From Octopus vulgaris (lineage: Eukaryota): DNA of 64,000 nt. The notes beneath the pieces are model-generated. The model had not been told where the DNA came from. It made no database searches and saw nothing but the letters and a program-made list of their open reading frames with translations. Location: NCBI GenBank assembly GCA_951406725.2, contig OX597819.1, positions 102,610,001-102,674,000 of the forward strand. Direction: 5' to 3'. Both the position numbers and the translations under genes were made by a program. Of the stretch, positions 12,966-45,063 are shown in pieces; position 1 is the stretch's first letter; every line of letters starts with the position of its first letter.

Positions 12966-13379
12966 TCTTTTGTGCTCTAAACACAAGGCCCGAAATTTTG
13001 GGGGAGGGCTCCAGTCGATTAGATCGATCCCAGTGCGCAACTGGTATTTAATTTATCGACCCATAAAGGATAAAAGGCAACGTCGACCTCTGCAGATTTT
13101 GAAATCAAAGCGTAGCAGCAGACGAAATATCTATTTCTTTACTACCCACAAGGGACTAAACACAGAGAGGACAAACGAGGACAGACAAACGAGGACAGAC
13201 AAACGGATTAAGTCGATTATATCGGCATCAGTGCATAACTGGTACTTAATTTATCGACCCCGAAAGGATGAAAGGCAAAGTCGACCCCGGCGGAATTTAA
13301 ACTCAGAACGTAACAGCAGACGAAATACCACAAAGCATTTTGCCCGTCGTGCTAACGTTTCTGCCAACTTGCCGCCTTA
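12966..13379 (-). mobile_element. SINE family B, tandem or nested pair
   Basis: A full copy at 13130-13379 is followed on the minus strand by a second copy that resumes internally at tatttcgtctgc. Confidence 0.88.
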
Positions 13380-13630: not shown

Positions 13631-13638
13631 TGCAAATA

Positions 13639-13702
<64 letters not shown>

Positions 13703-13707
<5 letters not shown>

Positions 13708-13951
13708 GTAAAACGGTAAGATAACAAAAGAAAAAAGAGACCTCAATATTATGTAAACAGAGGAAATTTATCTATACAATATGTTACATTACTCGATAGT
13801 CAAGATAAAACTCTGAGTTTCAGATGACGAAGTGGAAATCCACAACACCATCTCTTCGGTTATCTGGCTAACCGAAGAGATGGTGTTGTGGATTTCCACT
13901 TCGGCATCTGAAACTCAGTTTTATCTTGACTATCGAGTAATGTAACATATT

Positions 13952-13959
<8 letters not shown>
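13703..13959. mobile_element. Inverted pair of Penelope-like pLTR units inside (TA)n, forming a ~90 bp hairpin
   Basis: 13773-13862 and 13869-13959 are near-perfect reverse complements around a 6-nt loop (tctggc). (TA)n flanks both sides. Confidence 0.75.
13803..13865 (-). ncRNA. Type I hammerhead-ribozyme-like motif (CCGAAGA core variant)
   Basis: Minus strand: agataa CCGAAGA GATG..CATC t GAAA CTC a GAG TT ttatct, giving stem I (6 bp), core, stem II, GAAA, a minimal stem III and UH. Confidence 0.55.
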
Positions 13960-14021
<62 letters not shown>

Positions 14022-14037
14022 TACATATACGAAGGGC

Positions 14038-14075
<38 letters not shown>

Positions 14076-14149
14076 ACATATATATACGAAGGGCTATATA
14101 TGTATAACAAAGTGGAGTTGTAGGGTACCGCACGAGTGGAATTATATAC

Positions 14150-43843: not shown

Positions 43844-45063
43844 CAGGGTTTGGACAAAATAATGGAAACACCTTAAAATTTCAAGCAAATTTATTTTAAT
43901 AAGGTGTAGAACCGCTTTGGCAGTAATTACAGCTTGAATTCTACAAGGTATGGACTCGTAGAAAGTTTGAATTGTTTCCGAAGAAATTATTGTCCATTCT
44001 TCAATTAAAACAGTCTCCAGTTCTTTTAGTGATTATAGTGAAGAATATCGACTCCTTACTTGTTTTTCTAAAATGCACCATTAATGTTCAATAATATTGA
44101 GAACTGGAGACTGTGGTGGCCAAATATGATGTTCAACTTCACTAGAGGGTTCCTTGTGCTATTCAATAACACCTTTAACTGTGTGAATTAGTGCATTATC
44201 ATCCTGAAAGATTGCGTTTCCCTCCCGAAACAGTAGGCAAACATAGGATGGATTTGATCAGATAAAATGCTTAAATAGTCTTCACTATTAATTCTGCCAT
44301 GAAGAGAAACCATTAGGCCGGCAGATTTCCAAGATATAGCCGCCCCCCATCCAGATCATCACAGATCCTCCTCCATGTTTAACAGTTGGAAGAAGGCAAT
44401 CTGGGACGACTGCTTCTTTTGGCTGTCCCCACACGTTTACTCGGCCAGGGTCGAGAAATAAGATAAAAGATGACTTTTACGAGAAAATGACATTCTTCCA
44501 TTGCTCTAGGGTCCAATTTTGCTTTGAAACGTTTGTTTTTGAATGTAGTAGTTTTTTGATTACCGTGAAATCTGGCTTTGTGCAGCTCTCGGCGAACAGC
44601 TTTTGTGGAAACTGGGTTCACGAGGTGGTTATTAAACTCTGCAGTAATTTTGGGATCTCTGCCTTTGCAATCCTTTCTAACAATTTGCGTAAGAATCCGA
44701 TGGTCCCTATCTGAAATTTTGGTTTTCTTCCGGAGGTTTTTCTCTCTTTTTCAAAGGCGGTCATTACTTTCGAGGCAGTATTTCTTGATACACCAAACAT
44801 TTCGGCTGTTTTTGTTACGCTAGCGACTGCCATACGTGCACCAACAATTTGACCTCTTGGAAAGTTCGATAGGTCTGTAATTTTAATGAATTTTAATTAC
44901 CTTTTTATGATGATATCTGCAAAGAGGCAGCAATTTTAGCAAAACATATTAAGCAACATTAATAATAAATCAAAAATGCATAAAACTAAACAAGCTTTTG
45001 ACGGTTTTATAAATATTTCAAAATTATGATGCTAAGTGTTTCCATTATTTTGTCCTACCCCTG
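43844..45063 (-). mobile_element. Full-length Tc1-like DNA transposon (1220 bp)
   Basis: TIRs cagggtttggacaaaataatggaaacac and gtgtttccattattttgtcctacccctg, with TA on both sides. Confidence 0.95.
43900..44882 (-). pseudogene. Tc1 transposase, disrupted by frameshifts and stops
   Basis: TDLSNFPRGQIVGARMAVASVTKTAEMFGVSR..., VSTKAVRRELHK, FQDDNA and WPPQSPVLNIIEH* motifs. Confidence 0.92.

What the first reader, a model, noticed from the sequence alone, without database searches (positions are those of the whole stretch)
13703..13959. Near-perfect 90-bp hairpin made of two divergent hammerhead-like units, inserted in (TA)n
Seen: arms 13773-13862 and 13869-13959 pair with about one mismatch and two small indels. 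The minus-strand arm folds as a type I hammerhead: 6-bp stem I, CCGAAGA core (U4C relative to CUGANGA), extended stem II, GAAA, near-palindromic minimal stem III and a UU site. The plus-strand arm has lost 2 nt of stem III. Established: Penelope-like elements carry minimal, often dimer-acting hammerheads in their pLTRs and form inverted pLTR pairs. Inference: a young non-autonomous, ribozyme-bearing element (retrozyme-like) that is also a possible dsRNA, siRNA or ADAR substrate.
Basis: partly seen in the sequence, partly recalled or inferred. Interest (0 to 1): 0.75.

Follow-up and report, generated by a model that had tools for sequence, protein, structure and literature searches.

The report
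Penelope retrotransposon hairpin insertion stub
This DNA hairpin is one of many short head-to-head leftovers of a common, protein-coding jumping gene, likely made when the enzyme copied the front end of the gene's own RNA onto both cut DNA strands, so it is an ordinary insertion whose many siblings hint at where that RNA starts and is cut.

Summary
The hairpin is real (arms 13773-13862 and 13869-13959), but it is not a separate retrozyme. Both arms are the end repeat (pLTR) of an autonomous Hydra-clade Penelope-like element: a 2.59-kb unit with a 708-aa RT + GIY-YIG ORF, intact at many loci, with 3,145 exact 29-mer hits genome-wide. The hammerhead architecture matches published Hydra-clade motifs. 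In 39 of 40 two-armed insertions, as here, one arm has the ~68-nt tail and the other lacks it. Inner ends pile up about 15-fold just 5' of stem I, often preceded by an extra G. This likely marks a capped RNA start copied from both target strands. The active lineage's ribozyme looks weakened (U4C; older copies have U4). Five blunt palindromes begin exactly at the predicted cut site, a weak sign of occasional cleavage. In this copy the right arm lacks half of stem I, and on either strand the complement precedes the ribozyme, so the locus itself is unlikely to cleave. Cleavage, transcription and editing were not tested. Verdict: a new family of a known kind; this locus is ordinary, and the family-level footprints are modestly interesting.

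The parts
13636..13703 (.). (TA)n target microsatellite, left flank
   Evidence: the family inserts in (TA)n
13702..13870 (-). Left arm: pLTR of the Hydra-clade element from just 3' of the inferred RNA start to the long (tail) end; reference positions 2423-2592
   Evidence: alignment to natural full-length copy L054:1744-4335
13702..13769 (-). About 68-nt tail between the two fixed 3' ends (the inferred reverse-transcription start sites); present on this arm only
13797..13870 (-). Type I hammerhead motif: stem I 13865-13860 with 13808-13803, core CCGAAGA 13859-13853 (U4C), stem II 13852-13823, one extra U, GAA 13821-13819, palindromic stem III 13818-13810, predicted cut between 13809 and 13808
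   Evidence: sequence; same layout as Hydra-clade rows in Craig 2021 File S2; constrained fold
13863..13870 (.). Head-to-head junction: 6-nt loop plus a 2-nt TA microhomology (13869-13870) shared by both arms
13869..13959 (+). Right arm: pLTR from reference 2431 to the short end; defective hammerhead (5' half of stem I mostly missing, 2-nt deletion in stem III)
13956..14086 (.). (TA)n-rich right flank

Best explanation
The hairpin is a 5'-truncated, head-to-head insertion of the end repeat of an autonomous Hydra-clade Penelope-like retrotransposon into (TA)n, likely made when the element's enzyme primed on both cut target strands and copied only the short front end of its own, probably capped, RNA. 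Shown: the parent element, its copy number, the one-tail/one-short rule, the shared alleles of the two arms, and the pile-up of inner ends just 5' of stem I. Inferred: the RT-endonuclease nicks both strands of (TA)n and starts reverse transcription at two RNA sites about 68 nt apart. When this happens at the pLTR at the front of the transcript, both cDNAs run off the RNA 5' end (reference A2420) after about 105 and 172 nt. They are trimmed by a few bases (3 and 11 here) and joined through a 2-nt microhomology. The hammerhead is a passenger copied from uncleaved RNA. In the parent RNA it would work as a weak dimer ribozyme. At this locus any read-through transcript would be predicted to form the 90-bp duplex instead.
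For: Parent element: arms continue into an RT + GIY-YIG ORF. Open frames of 717 codons are present in 14 of the 15 regions fetched for that reason, including a tandem array with a ~2.58-kb period. Hydra motifs RWK, DKT, CxCX5C, CxxC and CxH are present (definition). Copy number: 3,145 exact 29-mer matches, reversed control 0. In a positional sample (98 of the first 100 matches on C1, 67 segments), 40 insertions showed both outer ends, and 39 of 40 had exactly one tail arm and one short arm. Arms share subfamily alleles: 74 of 76 concordant at one C/T site (about 52% expected by chance) and 70 of 76 at the 3-nt indel site. Inner ends: 22 of 100 arms at risk end in reference 2418-2433, 0.0138 per nt per arm, against 0.0006-0.0010 at positions 1000-2393. 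216 matches have a non-reference base directly before A2420, among about 2,531 copies spanning 2422. Extra G before the A-run at 2420: 18 of 30 in the discovery set, rule chosen post hoc. With the rule fixed in advance, 24 of 48 arms (18 of 40 loci) against 12 of 58 control junctions, p = 0.002 (0.014 by locus). After removing one duplicate locus, 3 internal substitutions and 6 microhomology-explained cases, 16 of 37, p = 0.02. Untemplated G is the accepted sign of a capped template for LINE-1 (PMC4859970 passage). In three insertions (L187, L227, L243) both arms end exactly at 2420 with a piece of the 5' UTR/ORF start between them, as expected from template jumps off an RNA end. In vitro, a Penelope enzyme nicks and extends both strands and starts at two internal sites that define the tail (PMC11167929). 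D. virilis Penelope transcribes from an internal promoter in the pLTR (PMC2377424).
Against: Without skipping extra A's the G excess is not significant (31 of 100 against 11 of 58, p = 0.13). By my reading, of about 15 upstream pLTR remnants in front of full units none ends at 2418-2433 and most reach further upstream, so many long templates do not start at 2420. Outside the hotspot, the two arms' inner ends do not coincide more than by chance (4 of 26 within 45 nt, 1.6 expected, p = 0.07). This window's arms differ at two indels that also segregate in the family; this needs repeated slippage or two templates. No raw reads were available to show an RNA start, and this exact junction was not seen in an independent run.
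Confidence: 0.75

Rival explanations
1. Same parent element, but the inverted repeat arises by self-priming (fold-back) of one strand, as proposed for Adineta Penelope elements, with the outer ends set later by the endonuclease.
For: This junction can be drawn as a 2-bp fold-back with a 6-nt loop. Arms share alleles. About 27 of 38 junctions near stem III join at its palindrome. The model is in print (PMC3846280 passage).
Against: The tail-less arm reaches further 5' in 19 of 39 cases (tail arm 16, equal 4), so the tail arm cannot simply be a copy of the longer arm. In 4 of 39 the tail arm stops at 2505-2545 and barely overlaps the other. An extra G at 2420 points to a capped sense template.
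Confidence: 0.15
2. A non-autonomous retrozyme-like element that spreads as a hairpin unit of its own and relies on its ribozyme.
For: Short palindromes are common: 18 of 40 two-armed insertions have both inner ends at or 3' of 2394. One locus holds 82-bp tandem hammerhead units (L011). Animal retrozymes are reported to derive from pLTRs (bioRxiv 10.64898/2026.07.22.740005 abstract).
Against: Junctions differ from locus to locus. Arm lengths grade continuously up to full ORF-bearing units. Short forms occur in old and young subfamilies alike. The arrangement is head-to-head, not tandem. On both strands the complement precedes the hammerhead.
Confidence: 0.06
3. The pile-up of ends at the 5' edge of stem I reflects exonuclease stalling or a protein footprint on the folded hammerhead, not a transcription start.
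For: The hotspot coincides with the base of stem I. Long insertions often read through it.
Against: It does not explain the extra G. The site lies in a pyrimidine-A initiator-like context (consensus recalled, no call).
Confidence: 0.2
4. Assembly artefact (fold-back chimeric read).
For: The exact junction was not recovered from contigs of four other runs.
Against: The arms differ at three places and have different, family-typical outer ends. An independent DNA-like run shows many similar family joints.
Confidence: 0.02

Closest known systems
Hydra clade of C-terminal EN+ Penelope-like elements (Craig et al. 2021, PMC8557442), nearest listed family Hydra-1_Obim
   Same: Unit under 3 kb with one ORF; RWK, DKT, CxCX5C, CxxC and CxH motifs; (TA)n target; hammerhead near the 3' end with an extra base before GAA and an odd-palindrome stem III. 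The stem III and cut-site letters equal those listed for Penelope-3_HM.
   Different: A different family: by eye about 60% identical to Hydra-1_Obim over one 56-residue RT stretch, with a different hammerhead sequence. It has intact tandem arrays and thousands of young copies. Its core is CCGAAGA, whereas all 26 Hydra-clade rows seen in File S2 have U4.
Inverted-pLTR insertions with a one-sided tail (D. virilis Penelope, Adineta Pen2a; PMC2377424, PMC3846280, PMC8557442 Fig. 2 legend)
   Same: Head-to-head inverted pLTRs, tail on one arm only, microhomology at the junction.
   Different: This is the ORF-less minimal form, and the tail is about 68 nt rather than 30-40 nt.
Poseidon_Ac in vitro system (Frangieh et al. 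2024, PMC11167929)
   Same: Two fixed reverse-transcription start sites that define the tail, both strands extended, AT-rich target; hammerhead cleavage not needed for insertion.
   Different: Different clade. Here the hammerhead and both start sites lie upstream of the ORF (start codon about 108 nt after the tail end), and all evidence is genomic.
Non-LTR retrozymes of animals (bioRxiv 10.64898/2026.07.22.740005, part 1 read; PMC7229834, listing only)
   Same: Short, non-coding, type I hammerhead, related to PLE end repeats.
   Different: Retrozymes are head-to-tail tandem repeats with a complete hammerhead in each unit. This is an inverted pair with one defective unit and no lineage of its own.
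LINE-1 twin priming and cap-derived 5' G (PMC4859970 passages)
   Same: Two primers from one target site are proposed to give an inversion; an untemplated G marks a capped RNA start.
   Different: In LINE-1 the two cDNAs copy different parts of the RNA (recalled). Here they mostly copy the same stretch, giving a palindrome.

Membership tests
Hydra-clade PLE | Single ORF with RT and C-terminal GIY-YIG endonuclease, element under 3 kb | tested here: met
   708-aa ORF, 2.59-kb unit. Pfam GIY-YIG E = 0.0077, below its cut-off; RVT_1 not hit. RT recognised by YKDD and by-eye match to Hydra-1_Obim.
Hydra-clade PLE | RWK motif, DKG changed to DKT, CxCX5C linker, CxxC and CxH, no CCHH | tested here: met
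   RWK 37, DKT 114, CxCX5C 557, CxxC 660, CxH 691; no cysteine between the two halves of GIY-YIG.
Hydra-clade PLE | (TA)n insertion preference | tested here: met
   3' ends abut TA-rich repeats in nearly all outer arms printed.
Hydra-clade PLE | Placement in the Hydra clade on an RT tree | not tested
   Reference proteins were not held as data; no tree was built.
EN+ PLE inverted insertion | Head-to-head pLTRs with the tail on one arm | tested here: met
   This locus; 39 of 40 two-armed insertions.
Type I hammerhead ribozyme (PLE type) | Stems I-III around the core in type I order, palindromic stem III | tested here: met
   Left arm and family copies; intermolecular stem III -7.4 kcal/mol, but -1.6 for the right arm.
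Type I hammerhead ribozyme (PLE type) | Canonical CUGANGA core | tested here: not met
   C4 in 3,809 matches against T4 in 299 for the two patterns used. Older subfamilies carry U4. U4C is a known natural low-activity variant (PMC3088659).
Type I hammerhead ribozyme (PLE type) | Covariation in the stems | tested here: inconclusive
   57 copies: 93.6% of cells paired, but covariation score 0.065 against 0.062 shuffled (57 of 500 shuffles as high); changes are one-sided.
Type I hammerhead ribozyme (PLE type) | Self-cleavage after GUU | not testable with these tools
   Indirect only: 5 blunt palindromes begin exactly at the predicted 3' product against 1 in five neighbouring registers; single-arm ends show no peak there.
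Non-LTR retrozyme | Head-to-tail tandem units, each with a complete hammerhead | tested here: not met
   Head-to-head pair; right unit defective.
Non-LTR retrozyme | Own non-autonomous lineage without a coding parent | tested here: not met
   Continuous with ORF-bearing copies; junctions differ between loci.
Non-LTR retrozyme | Abundant circular RNA | not testable with these tools
   No raw RNA reads offered.

The most novel reading that the evidence does not exclude
The family's thousands of insertions record the life of a Penelope-type RNA. It starts capped a few bases before hammerhead stem I, is primed twice from one target site, runs off its own 5' end to leave hundreds of 90-170-bp palindromes, and is only occasionally cut at the hammerhead site. 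Meanwhile the active lineage has stepwise weakened its ribozyme (U4 to C4, G-C to G-U at the base of stem II, a lost C-G pair in stem I). This would mean lower self-cleavage is tolerated or favoured during amplification.
Probability: 0.4. Interest if true: 0.55.

Novelty: new member of a known kind. Interest (0 to 1): 0.33.

Why it matters
The locus itself is an ordinary transposon stub. The family is useful because how Penelope-like elements make inverted repeats, and what their hammerhead does, are open questions. Here the genome gives base-exact predictions (RNA start, two priming sites, cut site) and a natural series of old and young ribozyme variants that can be assayed side by side. If transcribed, the several hundred palindromes (my extrapolation from one chromosome stretch) would be a source of double-stranded RNA; that was not tested.

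Tried and rejected
Rfam found no hammerhead; the miRNA-precursor hits are generic hairpin matches below gathering. A metagenome scan for related loci confirmed none of 225 candidates, so covariation across species was not tested. Within-family covariation was not above shuffles. Run search: no RNA holder listed. In contigs of three runs only guessed to be RNA, one contig bridges tail, 5' UTR and ORF start, and cover thins or stops near the 5' edge of stem I; contigs cannot show starts, so I do not count this. Coincidence of the two arms' inner ends away from the hotspot was not significant; an apparent 944/943 pair was a locus-edge artefact and was dropped. Ends at reference 2359 are probably alignment breaks in AT-rich sequence; they were left in the background count. 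No single-arm peak at the predicted cut site: 17 true ends among 30 of 38 matches at 2485, 19 (3 of them probably internal deletions) among 30 of 31 at 2486, and 11 of 19 at 2487. U4 as mere CpG decay was rejected for the old subfamilies, because it sits in both arms and travels with other alleles; it does explain some single-arm cases. Hairpins behind the two 3' ends, suggested by earlier notes, fold no better than shuffles (z -0.86 and -0.47). I recognised no host gene by eye among 68 ORFs of 110 aa or more (not scanned against Pfam). Lunse et al. on small dimeric PLE hammerheads was not held, so it may already list this core variant.

Full report
Observation. The hairpin is as described: arms 13773-13862 and 13869-13959, one substitution, indels of 2 and 3 nt, a 6-nt loop, and (TA)n on both sides. 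The left arm, read on the minus strand, has a type I hammerhead layout with a CCGAAGA core and a predicted cut between 13809 and 13808. Rfam gave no hammerhead match.

What it belongs to. A search of the own genome gave 859 candidates, with 40 scored and many in inverted pairs. Longer copies lead into an ORF with reverse-transcriptase and GIY-YIG motifs about 200 nt upstream of the hammerhead. A protein search found many 717-codon open frames. Of 15 regions fetched for that reason, 14 hold one, including a head-to-tail array with a period of about 2.58 kb that ends in an inverted copy. The 708-aa protein has RWK, DKT, CxCX5C, CxxC and CxH, and no cysteine pair inside GIY-YIG. These are the features Craig et al. 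give for the Hydra clade (PMC8557442, section read). Their File S2 lists Hydra-clade hammerheads with the same extra base before GAA and the same odd-palindrome stem III. By eye the protein is about 60% identical to Hydra-1_Obim over one RT stretch, so it is a related but different family; no tree was built. An exact 29-mer from the hammerhead occurs 3,145 times and an older variant 25-mer 1,184 times. I use one natural copy, L054:1744-4335, as the coordinate reference: core C3 at 2434, cut after 2484, short end about 2520-2527, long end 2592.

How the hairpin was made. I fetched 98 of the first 100 29-mer matches on contig C1, which form 67 segments. Forty showed both outer ends, and 39 of them have one arm with the tail and one without, as in the window. 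The arms share subfamily alleles (74 of 76 and 70 of 76 at two sites, across all non-duplicate loci matching the expression). They are also closer within an insertion than between insertions (0.53% against 1.26%, 29 pairs). The tail-less arm reaches further 5' in 19 cases, the tail arm in 16, and 4 are equal, which a simple copy-back of one arm cannot give. This fits the in vitro behaviour of Poseidon_Ac, which nicks and extends both strands and starts at two internal RNA sites (PMC11167929). The printed alternative is self-priming (PMC3846280). It is not excluded if the outer ends are cut afterwards.

Why so short. Inner ends are not evenly spread: 22 of 100 arms at risk end in 2418-2433, about 15 times the rate upstream, with a shoulder at 2394-2417 (11 of 78). 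In 18 of the 40 two-armed insertions both inner ends lie at or 3' of 2394, and in 8 both lie in 2394-2433 like this one. Scaled to the 29-mer count, that suggests a few hundred such hairpins. Genome-wide, 216 matches have a foreign base directly before A2420. In 30 of these, 18 had a G before the A-run when up to two extra A's were skipped. I fixed that rule and tested 40 further loci: 24 of 48 arms against 12 of 58 control junctions (p = 0.002; by locus 18 of 40, p = 0.014). The figure is 16 of 37 (p = 0.02) after dropping a duplicate locus, 3 internal substitutions and 6 cases explained by microhomology. Without the A-skipping the excess is not significant (p = 0.13). An untemplated G is taken as the copy of the cap in LINE-1 (PMC4859970). 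Three insertions have both arms ending exactly at 2420 with a piece of the 5' UTR or ORF start between them. I infer a capped RNA start at A2420, inside the pLTR as in D. virilis Penelope (PMC2377424), with run-off of both cDNAs when priming happens at the front pLTR. The window's arms start 3 and 11 nt inside that point. Against this, upstream remnants in front of full units do not end at 2420, and inner ends away from the hotspot do not coincide significantly.

The ribozyme. The young family has C4 (3,809 matches against 299 with T4 for the two patterns). Older copies carry U4 in both arms, a C before GAA that gives a G-C pair, an extra C-G pair in stem I and a firmer stem II. Arm-to-arm divergence orders the forms: 68 of 811 positions in the 10 pairs with U4 in both arms, 16 of 432 in 6 intermediate pairs, and 11 of 2,903 in 37 young pairs (my sums; one pair, L167, was left out, and all sets were picked on exact motifs). 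Constrained hammerhead folds fall from about -21.7 to -15.4 kcal/mol (one copy each), and -13.0 for this left arm. U4C is a known natural variant with much lower activity in vitro (PMC3088659). Covariation within the family is not above shuffles, so support for the structure comes from the match to other Hydra families. PLE hammerheads are reported to be weak and dimer-dependent (PMC4209133). Arms that span the cut site came from uncut RNA. Of 38 head-to-head junctions near the site, 5 are blunt palindromes with both arms starting exactly at 2485, against 1 in five neighbouring registers (post hoc p about 7e-4), while single-arm ends show no peak. That is a weak sign of occasional cleavage in vivo. 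At this locus the right unit is broken, and on either strand the complement is transcribed before the hammerhead, so a read-through RNA would be predicted to form the duplex (-144 kcal/mol).

Not tested. Cleavage, expression, small RNAs, editing and long-read support. No RNA holder was on record, and only contigs could be laid.

Novelty. Inverted pLTR insertions with a one-sided tail, Hydra-clade hammerheads and (TA)n targeting are all described. Earlier notes of this scan report the same short hairpins in many genomes (445 findings matched the words); these are unchecked and not independent support. I found no paper describing double priming or a cap signature for Penelope hairpins in three searches (2 papers, unrelated by title; listings on other elements; 6 listings). 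The library lacks most subscription papers, and one note search for the cap idea returned nothing.

What I saw of each paper. PMC11167929 and PMC4209133: parts 1-2 of 4. PMC8557442: passages, section 11, supplement searches and supplement part 2. bioRxiv 10.64898/2026.07.22.740005: part 1 of 5; its supplements are closed and may bear on the retrozyme comparison. PMC3088659, PMC2377424, PMC3846280, PMC4859970, PMC13282606 and PMC6765202: passages. PMC7229834: listing only. Lunse et al.: citation only.

Verdict. A real, ordinary insertion stub of a new family in a known clade; interest 0.33. The family-wide footprints of RNA start, double priming and a weakening ribozyme are the part worth testing.

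Noticed in passing
L187:1427-1845, L227:216-597, L243:151-482, L131, L165: A 60-130-nt piece of the element's 5' UTR or ORF start lies between two arms that end at or near reference 2420, suggesting template jumps and perhaps short leader RNAs.
   Followed up: partly
L011:1425-1879 (G000:C6, about 16.176 Mb): Two extra 82-bp head-to-tail hammerhead units (reference 2420-2496) inside an inverted insertion; a possible first step toward a tandem retrozyme.
   Followed up: no
G000:C2:44676845, C3:33467618, C4:21819182, C20:25694340, C26:14191710: Five blunt palindromes whose two arms both begin at the base after the predicted hammerhead cut.
   Followed up: partly
About 27 of 38 junctions listed: Head-to-head junctions centred on the stem III palindrome, which acts as a ready-made microhomology.
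   Followed up: no
L050 (four copies), also L061 and others: An A-to-T change at core position 7, the free position of hammerheads, has spread as a small sublineage.
   Followed up: no
L043:805-3156 and L042:3028-4687: A second, different Penelope-like family with a 784-aa open frame (RVT_1 and GIY-YIG hits) lies beside copies of this family.
   Followed up: no
window 13013-13129 and 13211-13327: Two copies (82% identical) of a short interspersed repeat just upstream of the hairpin.
   Followed up: no
window 44379-44750 (-): A broken ORF that by eye resembles a Tc1/mariner transposase fragment (resemblance recalled, not scanned).
   Followed up: no
window 14001-14106: Two copies of a short non-TA motif embedded in the right-hand (TA)n flank, 57 nt apart (family D3).
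   Followed up: no
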